From NCBI GenBank assembly GCA_965645245.1, contig OZ287088.1, positions 744,001-808,000 on the forward strand: a DNA stretch of 64,000 nt, given 5' to 3'. The DNA is from Massalongia carnosa (taxonomy: Eukaryota). Position numbers and translations under genes: made by a program. Below, piece after piece: positions 1-32,431 of this stretch. The notes below the pieces were generated by a model, which was not told the origin of the DNA, did no database searches, and saw only the letters and a list, made by a program, of their open reading frames with translations. Numbering within the stretch: the first letter of the stretch is position 1; every line of letters begins with the position of its first letter.

Positions 1-409
1 CGGGCCGTATCCGAAAGCTCGCCGGTATATTTCCCGCCACCGGGCTGCTCGTTGATATCGATAAAGTGCCCTTCGGCGACGAAGTTACGCATTGGTCCGA
101 TGAAACGTCCCTCTCGAGGGCGGCGTGTGTATCCATCCCCATGGGCACGACCGTCTAGAAACTCACCGATCCAGGTAATTCCCGTCGGTATTCCTTGGTC
201 ATCGACTTGACCTTGCTCCTGATGAGTAATTCACCGTAGCTGTAGCTTTCGTATCGTCATCGAACACGACTTGGGAAGCTTCACCCCGTCTTTTAACGTT
301 GCTAACCTCACATTCATCGTCGAACTCCCCTTCGTAGGAATCTCCATTCCAGTAAGTGATTTTCCCATGATCATGTTCCCGCCCATTAGTCTATTCGCCG
401 ATGTAATTT

Positions 410-990
410 TTATTATTATTATTAATTCATTAAGCGTATGCATCCTAAGGATATGACGCTGTGACTGCTATTTATGTACATAAACAACAGTCAGGAAGTG
501 GAAACCTGGCCCCCAGGGTAAAACCACTCCCTGTTCCATGTTGAACGCAACGAGACCGTCCTTCTACCACGCGGTGCATACACCCGGATCTTCAAGCGCT
601 AGGAATCCTATAGACTCGATGAACTAGACAGTGTATTTTCACACGTTCGACGAACGTTCTCTCTCTTTAAACGTTTTGATTCAATGGAGGAAAGACTGGC
701 CGTGATCGAGGGCAGATCGTGGTGTCGTATAAATGAAGGTGTGTAAGTGTGGCCATTCTAAATGAATGGGCTTTTTCGATGTGGTGAAAGGCTTCCGCCT
801 GAGGGGTGTGGCCATTCCGAATGAATGGGCTTTATATGTGTGCCTCCGAGGTGACGAATGATCAGTAGAGACGTTGATCGTTCAAATGGCCACCGAGGTG
901 GACTTCCGCGTTGGCGATGATCAGATATTGGCCACCTCCGAGGAGGTGTTGATAGCCTGCACCACGTAGAGCTTTCTGACCCAGCAGGCC
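410..990 (-). mobile_element. Non-coding SINE-like (non-LTR) retroelement with (TAA)n tail and 13-14 bp TSD
   Basis: CGCCGATGTAATTT at 396-409 and 990-1003. (TTA)n at 410-423 is the 3' tail on the minus strand. Removing the element restores a MORN repeat. No ORF. Confidence 0.85.
919..990 (-). ncRNA. Degenerate HDV-like self-cleaving ribozyme at the 5' end of the SINE-like element
   Basis: Minus strand reads GGCCUGC-UG-GGUCAGAA-AGC-UCUACGU-GGU-GCAGGCU-AU-CAACACCUCC-UC-GGAGGUG-G-CCAA-UAUCUGAUC. 7-bp P1 with G1.U wobble, P2 pseudoknot, 7-nt L3, P4 hairpin, catalytic C in J4/2. P3 has one mismatch. Confidence 0.75.
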
Positions 991-1360
991 GCCGATGTAA
1001 TTTGATCCAGTGTAGTAAATCATGATATCATGACCATGAGAGCGATCCTTGGACTACTGCCCTTCGTATTTGAACATTTCTGTTCACGTCCAACTCATGG
1101 CACCGAATCCGTCACGGCGGCCTAACACCTAGTCCCCTTCATAGACGCATCCGTCAGGACTCGAGAGCCGGCCATAGCCATGAAATTCATCGTTTGCCCA
1201 CGGCCCCCTCATAGACGGTACCAGAAGCAAACGTACAAGTACCCTGGCCTTCCCTAACATCACCTCTCCATCTTCCGATATATTTGTCGCGGTTTGCATA
1301 CACAGAACTTCCCTTTCCGTGCCGAGGGCCATCTACTAGTCTCCCTGTGTATTGGTTGTC
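991..1360 (-). pseudogene. MORN-repeat array (first five to six repeats); continues at 1-409
   Basis: YTGRLVDGPRHGKGSSVYANRDK / YIGRWRGDVREGQGTCTFASGTV / YEGPWANDEFHGYGRLSSPDGCV / YEGD*VLGRRDGFGAMSW / YEGQ*SKDRSHGH.. / NYIG. After the insertion: YIGE*TNGREHDHGKITYWNGDSYEGEF and WIGEFLDGRAHGDG. Fits YxGxWxxGxxxGxG with ~23-aa period. Confidence 0.9.
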
Positions 1361-1474
1361 AGTGCAGCCAAGCCTTGCAGCGAGCTTTCATAGTCTGTCC
1401 AGAGCGATGGCATGAACATGTTCTTCTGCCTTAACCCACGCATTCAACGTTCTAGTAATTCGCGGGCTCCATCG

Positions 1475-1915
1475 TGTCAGCTGAACATATACATAATTTC
1501 TATCTATGTTTGGGCAACCCTCCCCTCGCTGCTGCCCTGCTGGCGCTCAGTTTTGCTGAGGGCCCCTCCTATAATGGCTTTGTTTTGGCAGCATTGAGGG
1601 GGAAAACTCCATCTACCTATGCGGCTGATTCAGGGAGTGGGTGGGTGGGCAAAAGACCTTTTGGTGCTGAACTCCGAATCAATGGTGATGATGAGGAGAA
1701 GAGTGCCAAAAGGTCACCTATTTATGCCCTTTCTCTCCCTTGTTTGTCCAACTATTTTGGACATCATCCTCCTTTGTCCTTCGGCCTTCGTTGGCTGTTC
1801 GCGGCCTGCCTCCACTCGGTCCTTCGGCTATCCACGGCCTTCAGCCTTCGTCGGCTGTTTCGCGGCCTGCCTCCACTCGGTCCCGGCATTAGTTACCTTT
1901 CGCCTTAGCCGAATA
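1475..1915. mobile_element. Solo-LTR-like insertion in the NLR relic
   Basis: Starts TGTCAGCTGAA and ends TTAGCCGAATA, resembling Copia-1 LTR ends TGTTGAGCTGAA..TTAGTCCGACA. Internal ~40-bp repeat at ~1784 and ~1844. No matching TSD. Confidence 0.6.
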
Positions 1916-14539: not shown

Positions 14540-15392
14540 ATGATGATGATGATGATGATGATGATGATGTATTCATACTCCGATATGACACCGGCCGTAG
14601 GCCGGCCTATACGGGCAAAGCTATCTAAGTTATGTTACATGGAAAACCTTTCACAGGTGTAAAAACCATGTCCCTTGATACCCGTCGGATGTGACTACGT
14701 GTCGACGTCGGGCGGGAGACGCAGTGCAAAAGACGTGTGGGAACTGTAATGCCTCGTGAAAAGAGAAGAAAGAAAGAAAGGTTCAACTATTGTTGATTTT
14801 ACAATAATGTTGATGCTAGTGAGAATTGATTCAATAAGCCTGTTTTCATTAGCCAAGCAGTTAGTATATTCAGAGTTTTTGATAATTTGGTCAGCTGCTG
14901 ATAGTCGCTCGTGCCGGCGGCGCGAAATATCTGTTCTCTATTGTCAATAACTCTGCAGAACATGATTACATGTTCTGGAGTTTGTCTGTGCCAGCCACAT
15001 GAGCAGGCCGGTGAGGTGACGGAGGGCACCCGTCGCTTGTAGAGGAAGTCAGCTAACCCGATCTTGCTAGTACGGATTTGAGTTGTTAGAGCGCTTTCTG
15101 GCTTTTTTAGCTGCGTGTGTATTTTCAGCCGTTTTTTGCTCAGTGGGACTCATTGTGCTATGGAGGGTTCGATAACGCGATTTTGATATGCGCACCACGA
15201 GTCGTTCCAGACCTTCATTTGTCGTGCTTTGATTGTTTGCATCTGCTTGTGTCGGGCCTTTGCCGCAACGGTAGCTTCGCGGTGCCACACCGGGTAGACT
15301 TCGAACCATGGTTGGTATGCCTTTGGTTGTTGAACTATTTTTAAATCGATCAGTAGGCTTTTGGCCCAGATGTGTTTCAGCTCTCCCGGGGT
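14540..15392 (-). mobile_element. 5'-truncated Tad1-like LINE (family 1), (CAT)n tail
   Basis: TSD GGGTGTACGCATCGTGATA at 14521-14539 and 15393-15411. CSCG..QTPEHVIMFC zinc knuckle. Near-identical to 15765-16610. Confidence 0.92.
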
Positions 15393-15764: not shown

Positions 15765-18219
15765 ATGATGATAATGATGATGTATTCATACTCTGATATG
15801 ATACCGGCCGTAGGCCGGCCCATGCGGGCAAAGCTATCTAAGTTATGTTACATGGAAAACCTTTCACAGGTGTAAAAACCATATCCCTTGATACCCGTCG
15901 GATGTGACTACGTGTCGACGTCGGGCGGGAGACGCAGTGCAAAAGACGTGTGGGAACTGTAATGCCTCGTGAAAAGAGAAGAAAGAAAGAAAGGTTCAAC
16001 TATTGTTGATTTTACAATAATGTTGATGCTAGTGAGAATTGATTCAATAAGCCTGTTTTCATTAGCCAAGCAGTTAGTATATTCAAAGTTTTTGATAATT
16101 TGGTCAGCTGCTGATAGTCGCTCGTGCCGGCGGCGCGAAATATCTGTTCTCTATTGTCAATAAGTCTGCAGAACATGATTACATGTTCTGGAGTTTGTCT
16201 GTGCCAGCCACATGAGCAGGCCGGTGAGGTGACGGAGGGCACCCGTCGCTTGTAGAGGAAGTCAGCTAACCCGATTTTGCCAGTGCGGATTTGAGTTGTT
16301 AGAGCGCTTTCTGCCTTTTTTAGCTACGTGTGTATTTTCAGCCGTTTTTTGCTCAGTAGGACTGATTGTGCTATGGAGGGTTCGATGACGCGATTTTGAT
16401 ATGCGCACCACGAGTCGTTCCAGACCTTCATTTGTCGTGCTTTGATTGTTTGCATCTGCTTGTGTCGGGCCGTTGCCGCAACGGTAGCTTCGCGGTGCCA
16501 CGCAGGGTAGACTTCGAACCATGGTGGGTGTGAATTTGGTGGTTGAACTATTTTTGAATCGATCAGTAGGCTTTTGGCCCAGATGTGTTTCAGCTCTCCC
16601 GAGGTGGGCTTTTGAAGTCGTTTGCGACCTGCCTTGCCTCGAAGTTTGTCAGCTATTTTGTTGCATGCGGAGGAGATGATCTTCAATTGGCCTCCGGCTC
16701 GGAGCCGGTACCTTGCCTGTGCTTGTAGCATGTCGAGATGCGTGTCTATGGGCGCAATAAATGTCTCTACTTCTAGTACTGAGATGGGAGTGGCTTTAAA
16801 GGCACCGGCTATGGTGCGAAGGCAATTGTTTTGCATGACGGAGAGCTTGCTCGTTGACGTTTTTGACTTTTTGACTTCATTGGGCATGTGCCATACGGTT
16901 GACCCATATGTCATGGCCGGACGCACCACGGCACTGTAAACCTGCCTTGCCTTGGCGAAGGTGGCACCCCAGGTTGATGTGGAAATTTTTGTCAATGCCA
17001 TAGATTGTTTGTGTAAGAACCACTATCCAGGGAAGACGAATAGTAGTCAGCTACCTAAGAGACTAAGCATGAAGAAGAGAAATCTATCTACAAGGAAGAA
17101 TGTGAAATCTACATGCCCCGTTTGCCCTTCTCGAAGTTTCCATCCGGCTCTAGAAGCTTATCTCCAAAGCTTCGGTCGGAAAGAGCCGTTGGATTTAGCG
17201 CTCCCACACCCGAGTCCTGACAGTTTGACCATTTTCTCTTGCGTTTTGCGAACGTGCGGTCCCCGTTTCAATTTGGTGTCGATTTGTAGGCCCAATACTC
17301 TGATGTCCGTTTTAGGTTCAATTTCGGTGCTAGCAATATTGATGGATGCAGTCATGTTGAATCTTTTGGGATTTCTGGACAAGTGTATGAGTTCGTATTC
17401 GTCGGAGCGAATACGGACCCGTGCCGGGAAGCCCACGTCTCACATTGTCTGTGTATTGCCTCTAGAGTTTTGCAGTTTTCCTCGGTGCTTTTTCCATATG
17501 CCAAAATGTTTGCGTCGTCTACGAATCCTATGGCACTTGTGTTTTTGCCTGGTCGATCACATATTTCCAATAGATCTGCAATGTAAAATAGGTAAAGAAT
17601 GGATAACAGGGGAGAGCCCTGCGGGATACCCGTTATTACCGCAAACCGCCCGGTGACTTTTCGATTTATTGCTAAAGTGGTGCTTCGATCGCTTAGAAAG
17701 CTGTTTAACCAGTCGGTGATCCATTTTGGAATTTTTATTTTCCGTAGATTGTGTGTTAGTCGTTGATGTGATACCGTATCGAACGCGCCGGCGACGTCTA
17801 TGCTTAGCAGTATGGCTACTTTGTCTTTTCCCTGTCCCCAAATCGTGCGAACCTGTTCAGTTAGCAGTTCCAGTGCTGACTCTGTGGATCTGCCCTTCCT
17901 TGCTCCCATCTGTGTATCGGGTAGGAGCCGGTGTTTTTCCGCCAGATAGGTTATTTTCGATCCAATGATGGATTCTATAACTTTACTGAGCGTCTTGAGC
18001 AGTGCAATTGGTCGGTAGGCTTTCGGCGTAGTATAGTCTCCTTTGCCTATTTTTTTCAGCGCTATTGGGTTTGCCATTTTGAAGGCCCGCGGGTGGTACG
18101 AGTGTGTGACGCACGCCTGAAACAGAGGTGTTAGTAGTTTGACAAGTATTTCGCTACATGCTTTGAGTATTCTGTTAGATATGCCGTCTGGGCCCGGTGC
18201 CTTATCGGACTTGAGCCGA
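15765..18219 (-). mobile_element. 5'-truncated Tad1-like LINE (family 1) with RT
   Basis: KAPGPDG, YRPIALL, DVAGAFD, GIPQGSP, FVDD, C-terminal CCHC, (CAT)n tail. Imperfect TSD AAATRAGTTAAT at ~15755 and ~18220. Confidence 0.92.
17012..17222. mobile_element. Solo LTR (211 bp) inside LINE
   Basis: TGTAAGAAC...GTCCTGACA, TSD GTTTG. Confidence 0.9.
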
Positions 18220-18665
18220 AAATAAGTTAATAATAATAATAAAAGAGAAAAAAATGTAAGAAATCAAATATAACGAAGTTAACGGATTTTAATGCGGATA
18301 CTTACTAATTAAAGTATTGTAAATAAGTTGAATATTATTATCGAATATAATTAATCGCGTCAAGAAACAGTAATCGAAACGATTCGTCTACTAATATTCA
18401 ATATCCCAATAAAGCATTTTTCTCATTTTATCCATCTTTTTTATTACGTAATCACTTTATCATATCATGTCTAGTTTATCTTTCAGTGAGAAGAATTGAA
18501 TTCTTAAATTTAATGAGGCGTAAGACACGACCAGTTTTTGAAGTATGCACGTAATTACTTTGAAGTACGACGTAAATACTAGTTCTTTATAGAGAAGACT
18601 TAATGAAGATAATTCAAAAATCAATCTTTTATTCTCAATAAAGTTTTGTTTGATGAACAAGACTT

Positions 18666-20782
18666 TGCTAGATAGATAGATATATTCTTACGCCGATATG
18701 TCACCGGCCGAAGGCCGGCCTATGCGGGATAGACTACTATGCTACAGGGAAACCTTTAAGAGAAATAGAAACCCATTGCCAACGCTGCGCGTACGAGGTC
18801 CCAACGACCTCCAGCTGTGCTGCTCGTGTGCTTTTTCGATGAGTCCCTTGAATGAAAAGAAAATTATTGCTTGTATAGCAAGCTTGCCGATAAAGAGAAT
18901 TGCGCCAAAACGCCAGCTTCGATGATCCATCTCATTACCTGTTTCAATGTTTTAGATTTTTCGAGTATCGTACGATATTCGTTGGTATTTATACGCCAAA
19001 ACAGCTCTTGTCTTTTCGCCATTAATGGGCAGTGCATGCTTATGTGTTTGGCCGTTTGCTGGGGCCAACAACTGCTGCAGGCCGCCGTCGTCACGTTGGG
19101 AACTCGTCGTTTAAACAGAAAACTTGCCAGACCTGTTTTTTCCGTGCGAATTAGGGTAGCTAATGCGCTTTCCGCTTTTGCCAGATTGTCGTGTATTTTG
19201 ATTCTTCCTTTAGTTAAGGAAGCGCGCTGTGCTTCGGTGGGAAAGGGTACGCGATCTTGATATGCTTTCTAGTTTGTCTGCCATTTCGTTTTGTAATGCG
19301 CCTTTGTGGCTTTCGTGTGACCGCTGGGACTCATCCTTACTGCATTGGCTGTGAGCATGTGTTGCCCCGTAGGCGAGATCCAGGGTAGATGCGGCGTTGG
19401 GGCTACGGTGGGTATTGCGCTGATCACTCTGTTTTTGGCCCATTCGTGCTTGAGCATTCCTGGGGTCGGTTTCGGCGATCTTTTCTTGCCCGCTTTTCTG
19501 CGCAACTTGCGTTCTATCTCCTTGCAGAAAGAAGAGATGAGTCTCGTTTGCCCGGCGGTTCGTTGGCGATATCTCACTTTGACTTGTAATTCTTCCAAAT
19601 GCGATTCTATAGACGGCACGTGCGTTTCGGTTTCCAATACTGGAATCGGGGTGCCCGAAATGCACCCGTTATTGTTCGCAAGTACTTGTTTTGCATGACC
19701 GCCAGCTTGCTCGTCGCGGCTTTTTTGCTTTTCTCTATTTCTTTCGGTATGTGCCATACGGCGGATGCATAGATCATTGCCGGACAAACGACCGCAATAT
19801 AAACCTGTCTGGCCTTCGAGAACGAGGCTCTCCATGTGGACGCGGAGATCCTGGTCAGTGTACCCGATTGTTTCGTCATTTTTTCTTGAGTTTTCCGTAC
19901 ATGGGCTCCCCATCTCAGTTTGTTGTCGATTTGTAGACCCAGCACCCTGATATCCGGTTTGGGTTCGATCGTTTTTGTGCTTATCCTGATGGTGGCCGTC
20001 ATGTTGAATTTTTTCAGATTTCTGGACAGATGAATAAGCTCGTATTTGCTCGGGGCAAACACGGAGCCGTGGCGTAGGGACTATCTTTCGCATTCCTTGT
20101 GAATTCTTTCTAGCGTTCTGCAGTTTTTCTCGGTGCTTTTGCCGTATGCTAGAACGTTGACGTCGTCTACGAAGCCCAGTGAGCTTGTTTTCGTGCCTGG
20201 TCTTTGACATATTTCTAGCAGGTCTGCGTTGTAGAATAAATATAGAATCGGGGAAATAGGAGAGCCCTAGGGGATCCGTGTTCTCATATCGAATACGTCG
20301 GTGGTACGTCGTTGGATCGAAAGCGTTGTCCTTCTTTCGCTCAAGAAGCTCTCGGTCCAATCGGTAATCCATTTGGGAATCTTTCTCTTTCGCAGATTGT
20401 GTGTCAATCTTTGGTAAGATACGGTATCGAACGCTCCTGCTACGTCCATGCTGAGCAGTGTTGCCACCTTGTCGTTGCCCTGGCCCCAGACCGTGTGCAC
20501 CTGTTCCGTGAGAAGTTCCACTGCCGATTCGGTAGATCTTCCTCTACGAGCCCCCATCTGCATTTCGGGTAGCAGGTTGTTGCTCTCGGCCATATGGGTG
20601 ATTCCTTTTACAATTACTGCTTCTAGTACCTTGCCTATTGTGTTCAATAACGCTATCGGTCGATAGGCTTTCGGGATCGTGTAATCGTCTTTGCCCGGTT
20701 TTTTCAGCGTGATTGTGTTTGCGATTTTAAAGGCTCGTGGATGGTACGCGAGCGTTACGCAGGCCTGATATAGTGGGGTGAG
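18666..20782 (-). mobile_element. 5'-truncated Tad1-like LINE (family 2), (CTAT)n tail
   Basis: TSD GAACAAGACTT at 18655-18665 and 20783-20793. RT motifs YRPIALL, DVAGAFD, FVDD. Frameshifted. CSCW..HISMHC. Confidence 0.92.
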
Positions 20783-21238
20783 GAACAAGACTTAACTCTT
20801 TATAAATATATTAAAATTCTCGATCAAGTCGAATAATTTATTAGACTTTCAATGATTCGGGCGACAGCAAATTTTCTACTTCAAGAGATTCATTCAGACG
20901 TTTTATATCTTTTTCTCACGTTAACAATACCTGAATCAAACGTTTTCTGACTCGACATTTTCAATTCTTTAAACGCAAACAAAAATTATTAATCGTCGCG
21001 CGAAAACATGTGCATAACGTCGATGATATATTAAAATATTTCGAGAAATATCGAATTACTCGCGAGGCACTTAAAGTAACGAGTAAGGATATTTGAAAAA
21101 TAAGCGAGATAGAATTTTGAAAATGAATTTAAACGAGCTTATTAAGTTATTTCAACGTATTTTAAAAAGTCTTTACTGTTGACAAACTCGAACAATAAAA
21201 AATATATCTTCTCGTGTAAATATATTAATGCAGAAAAG

Positions 21239-22526: not shown

Positions 22527-25112
22527 GTAGCTCCCCTCTTCAAGAACGAGCTCCTGCGAGTTGACTAAATTTCTTGGCAACGACAGCGGGGAATTGTACA
22601 TGGGGTGATGTGTGGTCTGGCGGCGGCAGGGTAAGCAGAATGAAAGTCGTCTAAGGCTTGCTGACAATTAGTTAGGAAGTCGAATGGTTCCCAAGTAGGG
22701 GTATGTCCTTCCCAATTGACGAAAATACTGCAACAGAGGCGGCTGATAACGGCGATCGTATTTTGAGTTCAGAATGCTGTTTACATACCATTCCCGTTGC
22801 CCGTCTTCTGCGATAACAGGATCACGCGGTACTGGGTGTTGACCGGGGAAAGGGTCGGCAGGGTCGTGTTGCAAGAGATTGACATGGAAAACAGGATGAA
22901 TCTTGACAGTCCCTGGGAGTTCCAACTGTACGATTAAAGGATTGTTTGGGAAGACACGATTCACCCGATATGGTCCTATATTTCTGTCGTCCAATTTCAC
23001 CGTAGGTCTGGCAGTCTGGATATTCTTTGTGTTTAACCAGACCATATCTCCGACAGAATAACGAGGGCAGGGACGACGATTTGCGTTGGCGTTGGATTCA
23101 TATATGGCTTGGGCAATTAGCATTTCGTCACGCAGGTGAGAATCTAATTTCTGCATCCTGTTAGCGAATTCATTAGCAGCAATCAGATTTGCCCGGGCCT
23201 GGGTCGATATATTTTCCGGTAGAGGTTCTGCAGGTTCAAAGCCCATGCGGGGGTGTTGCCCTGAATTTGCTAAAAATGGCGATGCCAGAGTGCTAGATGA
23301 ATCAGTGTTATTGGCAGCGAATTCAGCGCCAGGAAGAAACTCGACCCAATCATCCTGCATATAATTCACATAAGCCCTAAGGTAATGCTCCATTGACGCA
23401 TTTGCTCTATCCGTTTGACCATCTGTTTCAGGATGATAACTGGTTGATAAACGAGCATCAATCTTTAGTCGTTTGCACAATGTTTGCCAGAAGTCCGATA
23501 CGAATTGGGATCCACGATCAGAAACTAGAACATCTGGCAGGCCATGGTGTTTCCATACATACCAATAGAAAGCTGTTGCGGCTTCTTCGACTTCCATCGT
23601 TATGGTAGGTGCGTAATGCTTTTGTTTGGATAATCGATCAACGAATACAAGAATGTAGCGATAGGTGACTCCCATAAAGGTACTTACGGGGAGAGGACCG
23701 ACATAATCCATGGATACGTCGCGCCAGCGGCGTTCTGGTGGAGGCAACGGTCGCAACCATCCTTGATATCTTTCCCGCGATGGTTTAGACCGTTTACACA
23801 CATGGCAGTTTCGCACGAATTGCTGAATGGTCTTATGCATACTGGGCCACCAATAGGAGCGGCCGATAATCTCGAAGCATTTCGCACGTCCTGGATGGCC
23901 ACCTACCACAATATCGTGGGCTAATTGCAGAATCCTGAGTCTCAATCTGTCTGATTTTGGTACATATCGTCGATTTCGGAAGTAAAGAACACCATCCCTG
24001 TCTTCGCATTCAGCCAACTGAATTCCGCTGTGATATCTGGTTCCGTTTTGCAGCATTACTAGAATTTTCGGGGCAAAGCGATCTCTTTGAATGGCTTGAT
24101 TCCAAAGCTCGTCGGTAGGGATATCCATCGGGTCATTGTCAGAGGCGATCTGATCTGAATCTGGATCGAGTTGAGGTTCGTCGTTATGATTATCATCTTC
24201 GTTGCCTAGATTTTCGGATTCATCGAGTTCGTGTTCCTGTTCTAAAAACGCAGGTGCTAGCCTTATGACTTCTTGTTCTAGGAAAGCGGGTGCTAATCTT
24301 ATAGCAGGGCATAAATTCAGGTCTCGGGCAACTCCTTCATCTATATTATGCGATTTGATGACAGTTTGATGTTGAAATTGTCGGCGTTCGTCTGTTTCAT
24401 CCCCTTCTTTAGGGAGATCTCCTGATCTCCTTGTTAGGGCGTCTGGTTTCCCACCTGCTTTTCCAGGGCGATAAATTATTTTATAATCAAATCGGGATAA
24501 GAATTCGCTCCAGCGGGCTTGACGGCGGCTCAATTGCTTGGAAGACGTGAAATATTCTAGATTTTTGTGATCCGTGATTACATTGATTGGGTGAGCGGAA
24601 CCCTCCAATTCGGGTCTCCATTCTTCGAAAGCCCGAACGATTGCCATTAACTCCTTATCATAGATTTCATAATTACATTCTGCCGGATTGTGTTTCTTGG
24701 AAAAGTAAGCAATAGGTCTTAGAACACTGTTCTTGTCATATTGCGAAAGAATTCCTGCGGATATATAATCAGAGGCGTCTGTCTCCACGATAATTGGCTT
24801 GTCTGGATCGAAGTGCAATAAGACTACGTCTGAGGTGAAGGTTCTCTTCATAGTGTCGAAAGCTTGCTGACATTTATCAGTCCATAAAAATTTCACGTCT
24901 TTTCGTGTGAGGTTGGTTAATGGGCCAGCAATCATGCTAAACCTCAGAATGAATCGTCTGTAAAAGTTCGCAAACCCTAAGAAGCTCTGTACGTCTTTCA
25001 CGTTTTGGGGAGTGGGCCAATTAATAACAGTTTCGACTTTGGCAGGGTCCATTTTTATCCCCTCTGTGGTCACGATTAGACCTAGATATGAAACTTCTTT
25101 CACATGAAATGC

Positions 25113-28100
25113 TGTTGAGCTGAATGTATGATAACAATGAGCTCTATGATGAATTTATATTTACGTCAGAAGAATATCTCTTGATAGTGAAATCGATGAT
25201 TGATTTATTGATGGATTTATGATGAATCCTCTAAGCCTAAATTTACAAGAAGAGAATTTTGTATGAGCTTATCTCGCTTATTACATAATCTCTGCCGTTA
25301 GTCCGACACACCCCCTTGATGAAGGTCTTCTTTCACTTGAATGAGAATAGAATCTTCATCAACTTTTTCCATTTCTAGGCCTAGTAGTCGTAAGAAGTCT
25401 TTGTGACGCTGAGGCGGAAGGGCCTTGGTTAATCCATCAGCTAGAATATTAGTAGTAGAGACCCATTCTATTTTGATTTTCCCAATAGCTATCTCTTGAC
25501 GTAGCCAATGTTTGTGGATATCGACGTGCCTTAATTTGGTAATAAGCCTATTGGTGGTGAGCGCTCGAATGGTCTGCATATTATCGCATTGAATGCTAGC
25601 TATTTGGGTTAGATGAAAGTTAATGGATTGAAAAAATCGAGTCCACCATATCAACTCTTTCCCTGCAGCTGATATAGCTAGCAATTCAGCCTCAGTTGAG
25701 CTAGTGGTCACAGTGCGTTGCTTTGATGCTTTCCAGTCTATCATACCATTGTACAATTTGAAAGCATAGCCTTGAGAGCTATATCGAGTGCTCGTATCGT
25801 CAGCGAATGAAGCATCGCTGCTGGCCAGGAAGATGGTGTGTGAGTTGACTAGCGAGCTGAATACGATGGCTAGGTGTTTAGTGTAGGCTAGATATTTAAT
25901 GGTGCGGTTTGCGCAGTCAATATGAAGCTTTGATGGGTTGGTTAGAAATTCTGACAATTTGGAAGCGGCATGAGCCACATCGGGTCTAGTGATGACTGCG
26001 GCGAAATTCAAAGACCCTACTCGCTGTTGGTATGAATGGATTTCTTGGGGCGTAGCTATAGAAAGGTTTTTAGTAAGCTCTTCTTGGGGCAGTGGTGCAC
26101 TTGTAGCTCTTTTGGTGAAGTCAGTGTTGATGCCAATGTTGAATTTGGCAATTAGCTTTTCAATATAGGAGCTTTGGCATAGCCATAATTTCCTATTTGC
26201 TCTGTCCCGGGTGATATGTATTCCTAAAAACCATTCAAGTGGACCCAAATATCGCATCTCATACCTTTGAAATAGTAGAGTTTGGAATTTATCCACTTGC
26301 CTGGTATATTTATGATCATATAGGATCACAATATCATCAACGAAAAAGAACAGCAAGATGTGGGTATCTTGGCTGATAAAAAGACAGTCCACCCCGGAGA
26401 TTGGTTCAAAACCCATATCAATTAGTGCTTTTGATAAGTTCCGAAACCATAGGGCCGGTGACTGCTTTAGGCCGTACAATGCGCGCAGTAGAAGCAATAG
26501 AAATTTGCCTTTTTCCGAATTTGAACCTGGCCACCCATCAGGTAATTTGCAATAGGTTGGCTCATCTATGGGGCTATTTGCGAAGGCGTTTACTGCATCA
26601 TACTGACGGGTTTCAAGGTCAAATGCCGCTAGTATTGCCATCAGCGCCCTAAAAATTCTTGCTGCAAGTGTAGCCGCAAATGTATCTTGCTCGGTGCGTT
26701 GTAGATCACCTCTAGCGCATAGCCTTGATTTGTATTTGGCTAGATAGCCCTTTTCATCGAATTTGTATTTGAATACCCACATAGTTGGTATGGGAATTTT
26801 TCCGGCTATGACTGCTGATTCGTAACTCACCTCTGTCCATGTCTTCTTGGAAATTAGCGCCTTGATTTCTATCTCCATAGCTAGCTTGAAACCCTCTGCA
26901 TGCGGGTGCTTCAGCATCTGGCGATAGTGTTCTGGCTCGTTGGGTAAGCTATCTCTATGAAAGTGATTGATTTTGGGATGATGTTGATCGCCTTTAAGCT
27001 CTTGATGATTAGAAGCATATGAACTTGCCTTGATATGTGCTGAGAAAGCGGCATGATATGAGTCCAATTCTCCATTAGATGCCTGTGTTAGTGCTGTTGA
27101 GTACGCTTCTTTGCGCTGATTTCGGGTTCGTCGTCTTCCCACCCCCTCAGGTAAGATATTTTGAATATCGAAGTTGGAGTTGACTTCTTTAGGAGCTCTG
27201 TTAGTGATAGTACTACTGCTTGTGGTGGTGGAAATAGAATCAGAATCAGATGGGGCTGGTGTTGGTAAGTAAGATCTCTCTTTCTCCTTTGGTGAAGAGG
27301 AAATTTTGTCAGTACTTCCCCCTTTTATTCCTTCCTCTTCATCCGATTCTATCTCAGTGATTAGTGTTACAGGATCCAAGCTATTTGCCTCGTAAGTCAT
27401 TTCAAGCATTGGCTCTTTGATTGCCTGCAATAAATCGATATCGCGAGCATCATAGCCGGTGCTATCATCAAACATTACATCTCTGGTACGAATCACCTTG
27501 CGCTGGCTAGGAATCCATATGCGAAAGATGTTTCTTGCTTCGTAGCCAATCAAATGGCCTATGTGGGCTCGCTCCTGCATCTTTTCTTTGCGCGGTAGAT
27601 TTTTGTTCAAGGTGTAGGCCTTGCACCCGTACTGATGAAGATGGCTTAGATCGGGTGCATTTCCGATGACTAACTCATATGGAGTTTTCCATTGATGCTT
27701 CTTCATCGGGGTGCGATTAGCGATATAGCCTGCAGTGCGTACGATTTCCGGCCATAAATAGATAGGTAGGCCGGCGTCGATTCTCATGGTCCTTGCTTTC
27801 ATTGCTAGAATTCCACCTTTTCTTTCCGAATGGCCATTTTGCTCTGGCGTATCAGGAGTGGACGATTCGTACGTTATGCCTTTATCAATCAGTAGATCAT
27901 TGAAATCATTTCCCAATGATCTTTCTCCATCCGATCGGAAAAACACTACTTTAGCATTGAAGCGGGTCTCAATAAGATTGATTGCTTCGCGCACTATCCG
28001 TGATGCCTCACCTTTGCGACCGTGGGTAAATACCATATTAAAATCTGTTGCATGGCATGCGAAGTGCGATACCCATTCATCTTTATTCATCGCTGGGTTT

Positions 28101-30242
28101 AGCTGCATGAGATCATATGTGATGCGATAAAATGGTGCATTAGATGACTCCGCATTGTCTGAGGATCTAGAGACTAGGCGATGGGCTTTTGACAGCGCGC
28201 ATGGCTCACACTCGTTGGTTTTGGGCACCTTACCTTCATTATCTTGATTGGATATTTTTACTCCCCTAGTTGATGATTCAAGATGTTGAATGACTTCAAT
28301 CGATGCGTGTGCTAGCATTTGATGCCATTCGTAGGCCGTTGCAACTTTGGAAGCTGTTGCTTTGAAAGCTGTTGCAACTTTATTGTTAGCTACTTCAGTC
28401 TTTTGAGCTGGAAAAGCGTATACTTGATTGTCTGAGGTGTTGTCTTCTAGCAGGTAGTGCTCGTTATATCGCTTTACATTTGCCACCGTCATTCCTTCCC
28501 TATGCAGGTGAAGTTTCCAGTTATCAAAGTAAAGCCCTTTAACATAGAGCAAGTCCTGAGAGACTAGATTGGTCATGAAGTTGGACACATATGCTACATT
28601 AAGTAGTGTCATGCTTTGCGGTCCGGTAGGGGTTGGTACAGTGATTTTTATTGTGCCATAGCTCTCTATTGCGAGGCGTTGGGTGCCCGCAATAAGATAT
28701 TCCCCTACTGCTTTCTTTTGGAGTGTGTATCTGGATTTCATGGTGCTATTGCAAACGTGGCTATTTGATCCGTTATCCAATATCCATGAATCTCTGATAG
28801 TGTAGCTATCTGCTGAGAATGATGAGGAGGTTTTTATTGATGTAAACGCTCCTATCTCCTTTTCCTGATTAGCGTTGGTGGTGGTCTTACTCTTTATTGA
28901 ATATGATTTTGATCGTTGAAGGGATTTTTCTACCCTTGCTTTCACTTGTTGGTTTTTCATTGCCTCTTCCACGATAGCCTCTGTTTGAGCCTTTGGGGTC
29001 CAATTGACAGGTCTTTTCTCTGGCACCAGATAGTAGCAGTCGCTATACCAATGTACAGAACCACATAGACACTTATTGGGTGATTTCTGCCCATTAAATG
29101 TTGCGCCAGATGCATCAGATTGTCCTTCCTTCCCCTTTTTCTCAGCCACAAATGCAGAATGGGTGTTGTTGTCCTTTGCTTTTTGCGACTGATGCAGGCG
29201 GATAAGACGGCGAAATTTTTCGATCAACAGATCAAGGTCCTGAGGCTTATCATCCTCTAAATCCATGAGATAATTATCAGCGAAGATTGGTTCTTTTGAA
29301 TGAATCGCCATAAGAAAATCTCTGAGCGGCCGATTCCCGATTGCTTCACCGATTTTATATGTTATAGCCTCGCTACAGACCAATTGCCATTCTTCCAACC
29401 ATGCTTCAATATCCTGCTTTCCAGGCCCCTTGCATAGCTTATGATACTTTGTTTCAATATCTAGCGCACGAGCCGAATCGCTGGGTGCAAGTCTTCGTTT
29501 TAGTGCTATGAGATGGTCCCATGGATGCGATTCCACTTTTTGAATGTAGGTGGCATTCGCTATCGAGAGAGTTTCTTGAATATAGGTTAACAAGTCGATG
29601 AAGGCCTTTTGTTGCCGTTCATAATTGACCAATAGTCCTTTGTATTCCTGAACATGAGCCCTATGTAGCTCATACCCCTCCTTGTCAAAGTGTGCGGTCT
29701 CTGTTGGGAGAGTATATGTGGGTTCAACTGGTTTTAGAATGTGAATTGGCTTGATAGGCTTTTCTGGGTTGACTAACTCCCATATTCCATTGGTGATGGC
29801 CCGATTCCGCACGAAAGAGTACCAGGTATCCCAATCCGCTGGTTTGGCTAGGATAATCTTTCTTGTGGTAGTAGGGTTCATCTTGACGGCTTGATTTGTT
29901 GATTCAATTGAATTGAATTTGATTGGCTTGCGAGCTTAAGAAGTCTAATGCAAATTGAATGTGCGATTAGCAAATTTTCCTCGGTTTACCTTTGTAGGAG
30001 AAAATTCTTATTCATATGACGATGGAATTGCTTCCGGGCTCATAACTGTTGAGCTGAATGTATGATAACAATGAGCTCTATGATGAATTTATATTTACGT
30101 CAGAAGAATATCTCTTGATAGTGAAATCGATGATTGATTTATTGATGGATTTATGATGAATCCTCTAAGCCTAAATTTACAAGAAGAGAATTTTGTATGA
30201 GCTTATCTCGCTTATTACATAATCTCTGCCGTTAGTCCGACA
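25113..30242 (-). mobile_element. Ty1/Copia element 1, full-length, apparently intact
   Basis: 196-bp LTRs at 25113-25308 and 30047-30242 look identical. TSD AATGC, PBS 30034-30046, PPT 25309-25318. Confidence 0.97.
25298..29881 (-). CDS. Copia-1 gag-pol polyprotein (1527 aa)
   Basis: Uninterrupted ORF: CLCGSVHWYSDC, WILDNGS protease, WH..LAH..CEPC, integrase core, RT FFVDD, RNase H SDASFAD. Confidence 0.95.
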   Translation of the reverse strand: MNPTTTRKIILAKPADWDTWYSFVRNRAITNGIWELVNPEKPIKPIHILKPVEPTYTLPTETAHFDKEGYELHRAHVQEYKGLLVNYERQQKAFIDLLTYIQETLSIANATYIQKVESHPWDHLIALKRRLAPSDSARALDIETKYHKLCKGPGKQDIEAWLEEWQLVCSEAITYKIGEAIGNRPLRDFLMAIHSKEPIFADNYLMDLEDDKPQDLDLLIEKFRRLIRLHQSQKAKDNNTHSAFVAEKKGKEGQSDASGATFNGQKSPNKCLCGSVHWYSDCYYLVPEKRPVNWTPKAQTEAIVEEAMKNQQVKARVEKSLQRSKSYSIKSKTTTNANQEKEIGAFTSIKTSSSFSADSYTIRDSWILDNGSNSHVCNSTMKSRYTLQKKAVGEYLIAGTQRLAIESYGTIKITVPTPTGPQSMTLLNVAYVSNFMTNLVSQDLLYVKGLYFDNWKLHLHREGMTVANVKRYNEHYLLEDNTSDNQVYAFPAQKTEVANNKVATAFKATASKVATAYEWHQMLAHASIEVIQHLESSTRGVKISNQDNEGKVPKTNECEPCALSKAHRLVSRSSDNAESSNAPFYRITYDLMQLNPAMNKDEWVSHFACHATDFNMVFTHGRKGEASRIVREAINLIETRFNAKVVFFRSDGERSLGNDFNDLLIDKGITYESSTPDTPEQNGHSERKGGILAMKARTMRIDAGLPIYLWPEIVRTAGYIANRTPMKKHQWKTPYELVIGNAPDLSHLHQYGCKAYTLNKNLPRKEKMQERAHIGHLIGYEARNIFRIWIPSQRKVIRTRDVMFDDSTGYDARDIDLLQAIKEPMLEMTYEANSLDPVTLITEIESDEEEGIKGGSTDKISSSPKEKERSYLPTPAPSDSDSISTTTSSSTITNRAPKEVNSNFDIQNILPEGVGRRRTRNQRKEAYSTALTQASNGELDSYHAAFSAHIKASSYASNHQELKGDQHHPKINHFHRDSLPNEPEHYRQMLKHPHAEGFKLAMEIEIKALISKKTWTEVSYESAVIAGKIPIPTMWVFKYKFDEKGYLAKYKSRLCARGDLQRTEQDTFAATLAARIFRALMAILAAFDLETRQYDAVNAFANSPIDEPTYCKLPDGWPGSNSEKGKFLLLLLRALYGLKQSPALWFRNLSKALIDMGFEPISGVDCLFISQDTHILLFFFVDDIVILYDHKYTRQVDKFQTLLFQRYEMRYLGPLEWFLGIHITRDRANRKLWLCQSSYIEKLIAKFNIGINTDFTKRATSAPLPQEELTKNLSIATPQEIHSYQQRVGSLNFAAVITRPDVAHAASKLSEFLTNPSKLHIDCANRTIKYLAYTKHLAIVFSSLVNSHTIFLASSDASFADDTSTRYSSQGYAFKLYNGMIDWKASKQRTVTTSSTEAELLAISAAGKELIWWTRFFQSINFHLTQIASIQCDNMQTIRALTTNRLITKLRHVDIHKHWLRQEIAIGKIKIEWVSTTNILADGLTKALPPQRHKDFLRLLGLEMEKVDEDSILIQVKEDLHQGGVSD

Positions 30243-31273
30243 AATGCGCATTTAGTGATGTCTGCTTGAAGGCCTGCCTCACGCAGTTTGATCAGAATTC
30301 TTTTAACGTGAATCTCGTGCTCTGATTCAACGTCACTGTATATCAGAATGTCATCCAAATATGCGGTGCAAAAGTCGTCCAGATACTCTCGCAGAGTATC
30401 GTTGATAAAGTGCTGAAAAGAGGCGGGTCCATTACACAACCCGAAAGGCATTACCAGGTACTCAAATAGACCAAATCTTGTGCGGAATGCGGTGAGTTCT
30501 TCGGCGCCTTCCTTTATGCGTAGGCGATTAAAGGCTGCTATTATATCTAATTTAGTAAATATTTTAGCTCTGGACAAGCGATTCAAGGTCTCGGCTATCA
30601 ATGGCAACGGATATCTATTCTTGATAGTGACGGCATTCAGGCCTCTGTAATCAACACAGAAGCGAAGGCCCCCTCCGGGCTTTTCCACGAACATGACAGG
30701 AGACGCCGCATGCGAACGGCTGGCACGAATGAACCCCTTGGCCAAATTATCGTCTAATGTCATGAAATAAAGTTTGAGTTAAAACCTAATGATTACCGAA
30801 CCGTCAAGCGGCGATCGAGGTAAAAGCCACCTGAAAGCCTATTCAGATTCATCCTCGGTATGAGTCTGAATATACCCCTTACTCCACTCCACCAATCTCC
30901 TCACTCCACTATACCCTCTTATCGCTAGAACGATCACATCCACGGGCCCACTTATCGCTCCACCTTATCGCCGCCACCATCACCAAAATCTCTCATCTAG
31001 GGTGAAGGTAAAACATGAGAAAGAAGGGGCTGGCTCAGGTATAAAAAGAGGACATATCCTGTAGATAGTTGACTCCTCGTCCGACGTCTTGTATAGCAAA
31101 CCATCCCCTAGCTATAGCTTCATTAATAAAGACATCTTGATCACCCAATCCCAGTCTTAGGAACATTAGTTCAATCCCTAACCCAGTCCTTGACATTAGG
31201 TCGGACCTGATCATTATAAGTGCCCTCCAGAGCATTTTTCTCCCATCTATCCCCTTTACCATAATCCATCGTC

Positions 31274-32431
31274 ATGACTGATCAAATGGATACCGAATCG
31301 ACTCAAACCGCCGCAGAATATCTTCAAGGACATATCAACGAAAACCCTCAAGGACTCGTTGATAGCATCGCTCGCATGCAGGCCGAGAATGCGGAACTTC
31401 ATCGACGAATCGATGCTTTGTAGACTCAGGCTCCTGTCCCCGCTCCCGTCCCCGCTCCTGCTATCAATCCCACCTTGGACTCTCAGCTGGCTGAGGTGAT
31501 GAAGATCCTCTTAGCCAAAAAACCCGTCGATATCCGTTCCGAGAAGCTCCCTGACATCTCCGAATACGATGGTGAGGAAGCCAAATTGGACTCCTGGGAG
31601 CAAAGCCTGATCCAACGAATGCATGTTAATCATGATAGTTATCCAACCGACGTCGCCAAGATCGCCTATGCGGAGAACCGACTCACCATTGGGAAAAGAG
31701 CTCATAACCTCATGAACGCCTATCGATTAGACGGCATCTGCACGCTAAAGACCTTCTTCGAATGGCGTACCGCTCTTCGTAAGGCTTGCGGTAACCCCTT
31801 CGAGCAGGAAGATGCTCGCAAGTATCTTCGCGAGACCCTTAAACGGGGTACTCTGAGTTTCGAAGAGTACTATAACCTCTTCGCCCAGAAAAAGGATCGC
31901 TCCAAAATGGAGGATGCTTCTCTAATTGATGCCATGAAGTCCAACATCAATTATGCCATTCAAGCCGCCGCCGTCCACTATCGAGTCCCCGGAACCAACC
32001 TGGAACCAGTCACCTTCGATCAACATGTCGCAATGTGGTTGAATACCGATCGGAAAATTCGCCAGATCAAACACCTGGCTCCCAACAACAGGACTACCCC
32101 GACATCCACAACCACCTCGTCTCAGCGAAAGGATAAAGCGACCATCACTCTCGCCGCACCCCTTGCTCGCACACCGGATATCCCTTCCGCACCAGTCCCA
32201 ATTCCTTCTATCGGAGATCCCATGGACCTGAGCCAGGCTATGGCAGCCGTCAAAGGTAAATCGCTGAAAACGGAAGGGGTGAGGGATATCTGTGATAAAT
32301 GGAATCTCTGCCATTATTGCAAGCAAAAACACCCGGGGAAGACAGCCATCGACTGTCCTAATAAAAAAACCAGTCTTCGCTCATCAGATACGACCTTCAT
32401 TTCCGAGCTCGAAGACTCGAAAAAAGCCTAG
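31274..32431 (+). pseudogene. Gypsy B gag, one premature stop (~31421)
   Basis: ATG 31274 is in frame with ORF 31475-32431. DPMDL and CHYCKQKH..C motifs. Confidence 0.85.

What the first reader, a model, noticed from the sequence alone, without database searches (positions are those of the whole stretch)
410..990. Non-coding retroelement that begins exactly at the cleavage site of an HDV-like ribozyme
Seen: a ~580-bp ORF-less insert with a 13-14 bp TSD and a (TAA)n tail. Its first 72 nt (minus strand 990>919) fit the nested double pseudoknot: P1 GGCCUGC/GCAGGCU with G1.U wobble, P2 GGUCAGA/UCUGAUC, L3 UCUACGU, a CAAC junction, P4 CACCUCC/GGAGGUG and J4/2 CCAA. G1 falls on the element boundary. 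Known: HDV-like ribozymes process the 5' ends of R2, RTE, L1Tc and some fungal LINEs. Inference: this is a non-autonomous family with no tRNA head or Pol III boxes that I can see, which cuts itself out of read-through transcripts and borrows a LINE RT. This copy is probably damaged: P3 has a G.G mismatch, P2 has a bulge, and P1.1 is reduced to a possible single U-A pair.
Basis: partly seen in the sequence, partly recalled or inferred. Interest (0 to 1): 0.85.

Follow-up and report, generated by a model that had tools for sequence, protein, structure and literature searches.

The report
Short fungal retroelement with ribozyme head
A 581-base non-coding jumping element, found in many copies in DNA from lichen samples, starts exactly where a hepatitis-delta-type self-cutting RNA fold would cut itself free; this design is known from trypanosome and insect elements, but I found no report of it in fungi.

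Summary
Window 410-990 (minus strand) is a 581-nt ORF-less insert with an exact 14-nt target-site duplication and a (TAA)5 tail. It has no tRNA or B box.

Its first 72 nt form P1, P2 and P4 of an HDV-type nested fold. Two Rfam HDV models align end to end and both put the cleavage site at base 990, but both score far below threshold.

The element is a family:
- Other public runs hold 26 to 1985 matching contigs.
- Their similarity stops at base 990, next to mutually unlike flanks.
- The two longest stretches without common variants are the ribozyme end and the 3' end.
- Three other copies, seen as read-through ORFs, also begin at G1G2 after unrelated flanks.

All three of those copies carry C19, which gives a perfect P3. 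The G.G mismatch is therefore derived. It is not private to this copy, because G19 dominates in all three runs that hold other copies. P1.1 is at most one U-A pair.

Self-cleavage, read-through transcription and the LINE partner remain untested. No stem covariation could be obtained.

Verdict: a probable new fungal member of a known kind, the ribozyme-headed non-autonomous non-LTR elements such as NARTc, SIDER and R2 SIDEs. Interest is moderate.

The parts
991..1003 (-). Upstream copy of the target-site duplication. It is 13 nt, or 14 nt if the shared G at 990 is counted.
   Evidence: Exact 14-nt direct repeat 990-1003 / 396-409.
919..990 (-). HDV-like ribozyme fold, nt 1-72 of the element. 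The predicted cleavage is 5' of G1 at 990.
   Evidence: RF02682 20.7 bits and RF00094 16.8 bits, both full-length with G1 at 990 and both below threshold. Pairs checked. P1 and P4 appear in the minimum-energy fold. No variant at 10% or more in 908-990 in X4 or X6.
984..990 (-). P1 5' strand (GGCCUGC). It pairs with 954-960 (GCAGGCU), with a G1.U37 wobble at the cleavage site.
   Evidence: Aligned to P1 of both Rfam models.
975..981 (-). P2 5' strand (GGUCAGA). It pairs with 919-925 (UCUGAUC): 7 contiguous pairs, one G.U, no bulge.
   Evidence: The descriptor run finds P2 of 7 pairs.
961..973 (-). P3 and L3. P3 is A18-U30, G19.G29 (mismatch) and C20-G28, around L3 UCUACGU. An alternative register is G19.U30, C20-G29, U21.G28 with a 6-nt loop.
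   Evidence: Three of three other copies have Thr for Ser at nt 18-20 (AGC to ACC), which means C19 and a perfect P3.
949..953 (-). J1/4 (AUCAA). Only A38 can pair with L3 (U23), so P1.1 is at most 1 bp.
   Evidence: In the RF00094 alignment, consensus GGG in ...CuGGGCAAC aligns to A-U here.
933..948 (-). P4 hairpin: 6 pairs and a CUCG loop.
   Evidence: Similar hairpin motifs recur at 889-900 and 842-853.
926..932 (-). J4/2 (GCCAAUA). C60 at 931 is the candidate catalytic cytosine.
   Evidence: Aligned to GGCuAA of RF00094 and GGCUAAG of RF02682. Its role is inferred.
747..842 (-). Internal direct repeat: two units, 59 nt start to start, 84% alike. The number of units varies among copies.
   Evidence: ORF products of other copies carry 2-4 such units. 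Joints that skip 57-110 nt occur in this region.
426..539 (-). Conserved 3' region with stem-loops, including a 16-nt-arm hairpin at 462-493. It is the presumed recognition site for a LINE reverse transcriptase.
   Evidence: It is one of the two longest stretches without a variant at 10% or more: 448-539 in X4 and 426-539 in X6. Hairpins. The function is inferred.
410..424 (-). (TAA)5 tail.
   Evidence: The tail ends of other copies vary and are A/T-rich (loose ends at 406-435).
396..409 (-). Downstream copy of the target-site duplication.

Best explanation
This is one copy of a dispersed, non-coding, non-LTR retroposon family. It is SINE-like but has no Pol III head. The host is probably a fungus from lichen samples.

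Shown:
- The copy has insertion hallmarks: a 13-14-nt duplication and a (TAA)n tail.
- The family has many copies.
- Those copies share a uniform 5' end at G1.
- The first 72 nt fit the HDV nested fold, with its cleavage site on that same base.
- The two ends of the element are its least variable parts.

Inferred mechanism:
1. The element is transcribed as part of a longer transcript from an upstream promoter.
2. The 72-nt head folds and cleaves 5' of G1, which frees an RNA that starts at G1.
3. A LINE reverse transcriptase, not yet identified, binds the conserved 3' stem-loops and the (UAA)n tail.
4. It copies the RNA at a nicked A/T-rich target, which produces the duplication.

In the window's lineage the head carries G19, which gives either a mismatched P3 or a P3 shifted by one base. 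P1.1 is a single pair. Cleavage may therefore be slow, or may depend on the shifted register.
For: Insertion hallmarks.

Multi-copy (4 of the 18 listed runs were laid):
- X4 laid 1985 contigs, X6 127 and X8 26.
- Summed depth in X4 is 2.3e5 to 1.2e6 over the element against about 825-871 on the flanks. The tool warns that this is not a copy number.

The 5' end sits at G1:
- Loose ends lie at 990 in 10 contigs (X4), 7 (X6) and 2 (X8), and at 991 in 6 (X4).
- Agreement among the loose letters is 0.42-0.65. Loose ends over shared internal variants agree at 0.92-0.96.
- The copies therefore abut different flanks rather than running on.

Protein-level copies:
- P0001, P0005 and P0011 have unrelated N-terminal flanks.
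- The junction codons are R, G and W, all xGG, followed by the same peptide as the window.

Fold:
- RF02682 and RF00094 both align full-length with G1 at 990.
- The printed E-values are multiplied by 4227 families.
- Strict descriptor: 3 hits in the window against a mean of 0.3 in 20 shuffles.

Module boundary: 4 X6 contigs match only from 919 upward and become unlike below it. Base 919 is the predicted end of P2'.

Conservation: all 30 (X4) and 32 (X6) variant rows at 10% or more lie outside 908-990 and 448-539. The chance of none falling in the 72 nt is about 0.019 and 0.015 if the variants were scattered evenly. The two runs are not independent.

P3: three of three other copies imply C19, which gives a perfect P3.

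Precedent: NARTc, NARTco and SIDER ribozymes are active in vitro (PMC4035085, passages read).
Against: - Both Rfam scores are far below gathering (20.7 against 44; 16.8 against 50), and nothing passes at gathering thresholds.
- C/D snoRNA models give equally weak hits on the other strand.
- P1.1 has at most one U-A pair. The reference list of PMC5640933 (seen) cites Wadkins et al. [quoted passage not shown] I saw only that title.
- P3 is mismatched in more than 90% of copy depth in X4, X6 and X8. The big amplification therefore happened with an imperfect core.
- No compensatory change was seen. The three other copies are identical at amino-acid level over nt 3-35, so the stems are neither supported nor contradicted by covariation.
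- The nested part folds no better than shuffles (z = -1.42; 16 of 200 shuffles fold as well).
- My descriptor was written after seeing the candidate.
- No autonomous LINE sharing either end was found. The LINE-type RT fragments in the window show no similarity to the element.
- The source-like run X1 shows only this one copy. I cannot explain that.
Confidence: 0.62

Rival explanations
1. The family is real, but its uniform 5' end is made by transcription starting at G1 from an internal promoter. The HDV-like head would then be an inactive relic, or serve another role such as protein binding or a promoter, as Pr77 does in L1Tc.
For: - G19 breaks or shifts P3 in more than 90% of copy depth, yet this lineage amplified most.
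- P1.1 is reduced to one pair.
- Uniform 5' ends fit a fixed start site equally well.
- Pr77 in L1Tc/NARTc acts as both promoter and ribozyme (PMC3383444, abstract seen in the search listing).
Against: - The HDV core positions are kept: L3, the C in J4/2 followed by NAA, and the G1.U37 wobble.
- The head is one of the two least variable parts of the element.
- The module breaks exactly at the end of P2' in 4 X6 contigs.
- The alternative P3 register keeps three pairs.
Confidence: 0.22
2. The HDV-like fit is a chance resemblance at the 5' end of an ordinary SINE-like or internally deleted LINE fragment.
For: - The Rfam scores are sub-threshold.
- Weak snoRNA hits occur at the same place on the other strand.
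- A loose descriptor matches thousands of places.
- The strict descriptor also hits 62207(+) and 33227(-), inside LTR-element genes.
- There are no covariation data.
Against: - Two separate HDV models out of 4227 families align end to end and agree on a cleavage site that is also the element's first base.
- The strict descriptor expects about 0.3 matches per 128 kb, so a match starting on one given base is very unlikely.
- L3 UCUACGU equals the RF02682 consensus loop.
- C19 in three of three other copies completes P3.
Confidence: 0.12
3. The 72 nt encode a C/D-box snoRNA-like RNA on the plus strand.
For: Weak hits to sR44 (18.3 bits), SNORD24 (18.4 bits) and SNORD103 (15.9 bits) on the plus strand at 910-985.
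Against: - All are far below their thresholds of 41-45 bits.
- Rfam holds very many C/D families with little information in each (my knowledge).
- The plus strand is antisense to the element, whose tail and duplication fix its direction.
- The apparent C box is imperfect in the printed alignments.
Confidence: 0.02

Closest known systems
NARTc/NARTco and SIDER elements of trypanosomatids (partners L1Tc, L1Tco, ingi; Pr77/L1TcRz)
   Same: They are short, ORF-less, dispersed non-LTR elements whose first ~77-126 nt are an HDV-like ribozyme that cuts at the element's first base. The same head is shared with an autonomous LINE. Source: PMC4035085, passages read; PMC3185411 and PMC3383444, abstracts in the search listing.
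   Different: Here the host is a fungus, the tail is (TAA)n, and Rfam shows the closest match to the classical HDV and F. prausnitzii cores. No partner LINE was found and activity is untested. P1.1 is reduced to one pair, and P3 is mismatched in the dominant lineage.
R2 SIDEs (short internally deleted elements) of Drosophila
   Same: They are non-autonomous and have lost their ORF. They keep the 5' HDV-like ribozyme and the 3' end needed by the parent's protein. Source: PMC3414825, abstract in the search listing; PMC6765202, passages read.
   Different: SIDEs sit at one site in 28S rDNA and are cut from a Pol I co-transcript. This family is dispersed among unrelated flanks. Descent from a LINE by internal deletion is not shown here.
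Fungal HDV ribozyme variants (Li and Breaker 2017, PMC5640933; section 7 read whole)
   Same: They are HDV-class ribozymes in ascomycetes: 230 examples in 26 species, two of which were shown to cleave. Their gene associations vary widely. They carry an extra nucleotide between P2 and P3. Here A17 sits between P2 and P3.
   Different: Those variants typically have a C-G pair at the cleavage site and an E-loop in P4. This one has the classical G.U wobble and a plain P4. That paper never uses a word beginning 'retrotranspos' (0 occurrences). Its alignments (.sto files) could not be read, so overlap with this family is unknown.
Rfam RF02682 (HDV-F-prausnitzii) and RF00094 (HDV ribozyme)
   Same: Both give full-length alignments with the same cleavage site. 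L3 is identical to the RF02682 consensus. CAAC in J1/4 and GGC.AA in J4/2 are kept.
   Different: Scores are 20.7 and 16.8 bits against thresholds of 44 and 50. The GG that forms P1.1 is missing. P3 has a central mismatch in this copy.
Classical SINEs (tRNA, 5S or 7SL heads)
   Same: They are short, non-coding, have target-site duplications and a simple-repeat tail, and depend on a LINE.
   Different: There is no tRNA, no B box in the element, and no tRNA, 5S or 7SL hit in Rfam E-value mode.

Membership tests
HDV-like self-cleaving ribozyme | P1 of about 7 pairs that begins at the cleavage site, with a purine-pyrimidine pair (G.U) at its base | tested here: met
   G1.U37 to C7-G31. Aligned to P1 of RF00094 and RF02682.
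HDV-like self-cleaving ribozyme | P2 pairs the segment after P1 with the 3' end, giving the nested double-pseudoknot topology | tested here: met
   G10-C72 to A16-U66: 7 pairs with one G.U. Rfam models do not score this pseudoknot.
HDV-like self-cleaving ribozyme | P3 of 3 pairs closing L3 | tested here: inconclusive
   This copy has a central G19.G29 mismatch. A register shifted by one base gives three pairs, two of them G.U. Three of three other copies imply C19 and a perfect P3. G19 dominates in X4, X6 and X8.
HDV-like self-cleaving ribozyme | P1.1: two pairs between L3 and the start of J1/4 | tested here: not met
   Only U23-A38 can form. Consensus GGG aligns to A-U with a gap. Nt 38 is a silent third codon position in the other copies, so their state is unknown.
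HDV-like self-cleaving ribozyme | Catalytic C in J4/2 followed by NAA, and a conserved L3 core | tested here: met
   GCCAA aligns to GGCuAA. L3 UCUACGU equals the RF02682 consensus loop.
HDV-like self-cleaving ribozyme | Rfam gathering score | tested here: not met
   20.7 against 44 (RF02682) and 16.8 against 50 (RF00094).
HDV-like self-cleaving ribozyme | Site-specific self-cleavage that leaves a 5'-OH on G1 | not testable with these tools
No RNA run was listed.
Non-autonomous non-LTR retroposon | Target-site duplication and a simple-repeat or A-rich 3' tail, with no terminal inverted or long terminal repeats | tested here: met
Non-autonomous non-LTR retroposon | Many dispersed copies with different flanks and no coding capacity | tested here: met
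   (X4, X6, X8). The nine ORF products P0001-P0009 come from 8 contigs of 1.7-3.8 Mb. No frame exceeds 89 aa.
Non-autonomous non-LTR retroposon | Shares its 3' end, or both ends, with an autonomous LINE | tested here: inconclusive
   The LINE-type RT fragments in the window share nothing with it. Four X6 contigs carry the head on another body, but their sequence could not be fetched.
Classical SINE | A Pol III head derived from tRNA, 5S or 7SL, with A and B boxes | tested here: not met

The most novel reading that the evidence does not exclude
The lineage that amplified to hundreds of copy-equivalents uses a working HDV core that breaks two textbook rules. P3 is shifted by one base (G19.U30, C20-G29, U21.G28), and P1.1 is a single U-A pair. 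If so, fungi hold a new minimal variant of the HDV core that defines the 5' end of a SINE-like family. This family would also give many 'orphan' canonical HDV-like ribozymes of fungi a function. The 72-nt head might in addition act as a promoter, as Pr77 does.
Probability: 0.3. Interest if true: 0.6.

Novelty: new member of a known kind. Interest (0 to 1): 0.45.

Why it matters
HDV-like ribozymes at the 5' ends of retroelements are documented for animals and trypanosomatids (PMC6765202 and PMC4035085, passages read). For fungi, 230 HDV-class ribozymes were reported with 'widely variable gene associations' and no assigned role (PMC5640933, section 7). A fungal family with a uniform 5' end on the cleavage site would give at least some of them a role.

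It would also add a ribozyme-headed type to the short retroposons of fungi. In my four searches of the held library no paper linked an HDV-like ribozyme to a fungal retroelement.

The natural G19 and C19 pair is a ready-made test of how much P3 matters for spread.

In practice, such elements are easily missed by repeat annotation of lichen-fungus genomes.

Tried and rejected
- Whole-genome search: no genome is held for this window.
- Pattern scans with the L3/P3'/J1/4 core and P1' left open: 2 hits in metagenome contigs, 4 in genome contigs and 0 in viral contigs. I inspected all 6. None has a P1 partner, and they look like coding sequence. No DNA of other copies could be fetched, so no covariation test was possible.
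- RNA evidence: no RNA holder was listed.
- Loose HDV descriptor: thousands of raw matches, 4517 on the plus strand alone. It was uninformative and I dropped it.
- RIP as the source of the transitions: only 3 of 17 G>A changes have T before, and only 1 of 5 C>T changes have A after. Not supported for the element.
- LINE fragments in the window (17352-18263 and 20267-20791, minus strand) as partner: no similarity.
- MITE or DNA transposon: no terminal inverted repeats.
- snoRNA on the other strand: rejected (see rivals).
- Earlier notes of this scan: none for this sequence or genome. Of the 81 notes on 'HDV ribozyme', the 8 shown were mostly on phages or viruses, and none affected this reading.
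- Papers: Webb 2009 and Webb and Luptak 2011 are not held. Ruminski 2011 was not found. Statements on RTE and Baggins therefore rest on the review PMC6765202.
- Supplements: the .sto alignments of PMC5640933 could not be read.
- Third protein search, with P0011: it found only itself.
- P0012 (714 aa, 9 short stretches) was not fetched. I judged it low-complexity noise and left it out of the counts.

Full report
What is there

On the minus strand, window 410-990 is a 581-nt insert. The 14-mer AAATTACATCGGCG stands at 990-1003 and again at 396-409. Its last G, at 990, can belong to the duplication or to the element. The 3' end is (TAA)5 at 410-424. There are no terminal inverted repeats. No stop-to-stop frame exceeds 89 aa, and that one runs into the flank. 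There is no tRNA. None of the 18 near-matches to a B-box consensus in the window lies in 410-990 (the consensus is recalled).

The insert sits in the sense direction inside a decayed MORN-like repeat, whose frame has stops where Trp is expected. The window is otherwise full of transposons: copia, gypsy, Tc1-type, MULE and LINE-type RT fragments, plus an NLR-like piece. Together with 'lichen metagenome' among the holders, this suggests a fungus from lichen samples. That is my inference, not a tool result.

The fold

Numbering from G1 at 990, one search confirms the following.
- P1: G1.U37 to C7-G31.
- P2: G10-C72 to A16-U66, seven contiguous pairs with one G.U and no bulge.
- P3: A18-U30, G19.G29 (mismatch), C20-G28.
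- L3: UCUACGU.
- J1/4: AUCAA.
- P4: six pairs with a CUCG loop.
- J4/2: GCCAAUA.

Rfam at gathering thresholds reports nothing in the window. In E-value mode two HDV-class models align end to end. RF02682 scores 20.7 bits (threshold 44) and RF00094 scores 16.8 bits (threshold 50). Both put the cleavage site 5' of base 990. The alignments show L3 equal to the RF02682 consensus loop, and CAAC and GGC.AA kept. The consensus GGG that supplies P1.1 is replaced by A-U with a gap, so only U23-A38 can pair.

The same call gives equally weak C/D-snoRNA hits on the other strand, so the scores by themselves prove little. A loose descriptor of mine matched thousands of places. A strict structure-only one, written after seeing the candidate, matched 3 places in the window against a mean of 0.3 and a maximum of 2 in 20 shuffles. 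The nested part folds as P1 plus P4, but no better than shuffles (z = -1.42). What counts is that the fold starts on the first base of the element.

It is a family with a fixed 5' end

The element is single-copy in the window, and no genome is held. Of the 18 listed runs I laid 4. X1 looks like the source: one 2051-nt contig with no differences, and no second copy. I cannot explain that.

| Run | Contigs laid | Depth on flanks | Summed depth over the element |
|---|---|---|---|
| X4 | 1985 | about 825-871 (same flanks, no differences over 200-372) | 2.3e5 to 1.2e6 |
| X6 | 127 | about 6 | 159 to 884 |
| X8 | 26 | none | 9.6 to 32 |

The tool warns that summed depth is not a copy number.

Similarity to other copies stops at 990 in 10 (X4), 7 (X6) and 2 (X8) contigs, at 991 in 6 (X4), and at 992 in 1 (X6). 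The letters beyond agree only 0.42-0.65 with each other. Loose ends over shared internal variants agree 0.92-0.96. Other copies therefore abut different flanks at G1 rather than running on. Twenty rows of that table were shown and 156 were hidden.

On the tail side the ends scatter over 406-435 and are T-rich on the plus strand. One X4 contig joins 990 straight to 421, a head-to-tail pair. Four X6 contigs match only from 919 upward and become unlike below it. Base 919 is the predicted last base of P2', so the head behaves as a separate module on another body. That body could be the partner LINE, but I could not fetch it.

Conservation

The per-run tallies of change types equal the rows shown for X4 (30 rows, 29 places) and X6 (32 rows, 31 places). 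I recounted this. The 18 hidden rows therefore belong to X8 alone. In X4 and X6 no variant reaches 10% in 908-990 or in 448-539. These are the two longest variant-free stretches. If the places were scattered evenly over 426-990, none would fall in the 72 nt with probability about 0.019 (X4) and 0.015 (X6). The two runs share ancestry and are not independent. The element's two functional ends, as the model sees them, are its most constant parts.

Other copies seen as proteins

Translating nt 3-233 and searching the protein collections gave these results.
- 4 of 4 candidates passed.
- 5 of 16 candidates passed.
- 8 representatives passed. One of them, P0012, I did not fetch.
- The last search found only its own query.

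Nine of the products (P0001-P0009) lie on 8 different contigs of 1.7-3.8 Mb. Nine of the 12 related products cover only the body and show 2-4 units of the internal repeat.

Three products read through the head: P0001, P0005 and P0011. In all three the N-terminal part is unrelated to the window's flank and to the other two. The junction codon is R, G or W (all xGG, so G1G2 is kept), and the same peptide follows.
- All three have Thr where the window has Ser at nt 18-20. The only single-base route is AGC to ACC, which means C19 and gives a perfect P3.
- P0001 and P0005 are otherwise identical to the window over nt 3-74.
- P0011 implies U37C, which turns G1.U37 into G1-C37. It also has a P4 region two codons shorter, and U64C.
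- Third codon positions, including nt 38, are invisible at this level.
- No compensatory pair change was seen, so the stems are untested by covariation.

G19 is therefore derived. No C>G class of change reaches 10% in X4, X6 or X8, so it is the common state there and not damage private to this copy.

Mechanism

The best-supported reading is the known one for ribozyme-headed non-LTR elements.
1. The element is co-transcribed from outside.
2. The RNA cuts itself 5' of G1.
3. A LINE enzyme recognises the 3' stem-loops and the (UAA)n tail.
4. Target-primed reverse transcription follows.

Only the genomic footprints are shown: the duplication, the tail, the fixed 5' end and the conserved ends. Every RNA step is inferred.

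The main rival is a fixed transcription start at G1 with an inactive or re-used head. The imperfect core of the amplified lineage speaks for that rival. The kept core positions and the module boundary at 919 speak against it.

Comparison and novelty

The closest kinds are:
- NARTc, NARTco and SIDER of trypanosomatids, whose ribozymes were shown to be active (PMC4035085, passages read);
- R2 SIDEs (PMC3414825, abstract; PMC6765202, passages read).

Fungal HDV-class ribozymes are known: 230 in 26 species, two of them assayed (PMC5640933, section 7 read). That paper describes a different variant, with a C-G pair at the cleavage site and an E-loop in P4, and never mentions retrotransposons. Four searches of the held library returned no paper linking an HDV-like ribozyme to a fungal or lichen retroelement. 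The library lacks most subscription journals.

I file this as a new member of a known kind. Membership of the HDV class is probable but not established. P1, P2, L3 and J4/2 are met. P3 is inconclusive. P1.1 and the Rfam thresholds are not met. Cleavage is untested.

Noticed in passing
window 991-1500 and 2-409, minus strand: The flanks read as a decayed MORN-like repeat (YEG..G..G motifs) with stop codons where Trp is expected. The element lies in the same direction as this frame.
   Followed up: partly
window 25112-30242: Apparently intact copia-type LTR element. It has 197-nt ends that are 100% identical (25112-25308 and 30046-30242) and one 1545-aa frame with RVT_2. A third LTR-like copy, 96% alike, lies at 57567-57763.
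   Followed up: no
window 44271-49557: Second copia-type element. Its repeats of at least 300 nt are 100% identical, and it has a 1478-aa frame carrying gag, integrase and RVT_2.
   Followed up: no
window 30754-37080: Gypsy-type element with 99% identical ends 6027 nt apart. Its pol is split over three frames.
   Followed up: no
window 16300-20800, minus strand: Two LINE-type RT fragments (17352-18263 and 20267-20791). The best solved relatives are LINE-1 ORF2p and R2. Next to them is a 1213-nt tandem duplication (14552-14851 / 15765-16064). They show no similarity to the element.
   Followed up: partly
window 842-853, 889-900, 934-945: Three similar short hairpin motifs (CACCUCGG-type) lie 45-47 nt apart. 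The first of them is P4 of the ribozyme. Their role is unknown.
   Followed up: no
flank codons upstream of G1 in the window, P0001, P0005 and P0011: A Leu codon sits four codons before the junction in 4 of 4 copies (KLHR|R, HLHS|R, NLNG|G, FLPP|W). In the window it is TTA, near the start of the duplication. This may reflect a target preference.
   Followed up: no
run X1: The source-like run holds the whole stretch in one contig and shows no other copy of the element. Run X4 holds the same flanks plus 1985 element contigs. Unexplained.
   Followed up: no
window 910-985, plus strand: Weak C/D-box snoRNA-like matches lie antisense to the ribozyme: sR44 18.3 bits, SNORD24 18.4 bits, SNORD103 15.9 bits. 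All are far below threshold.
   Followed up: partly
window 51982-52269: Two tandem copies of a 144-nt unit, 98% alike.
   Followed up: no
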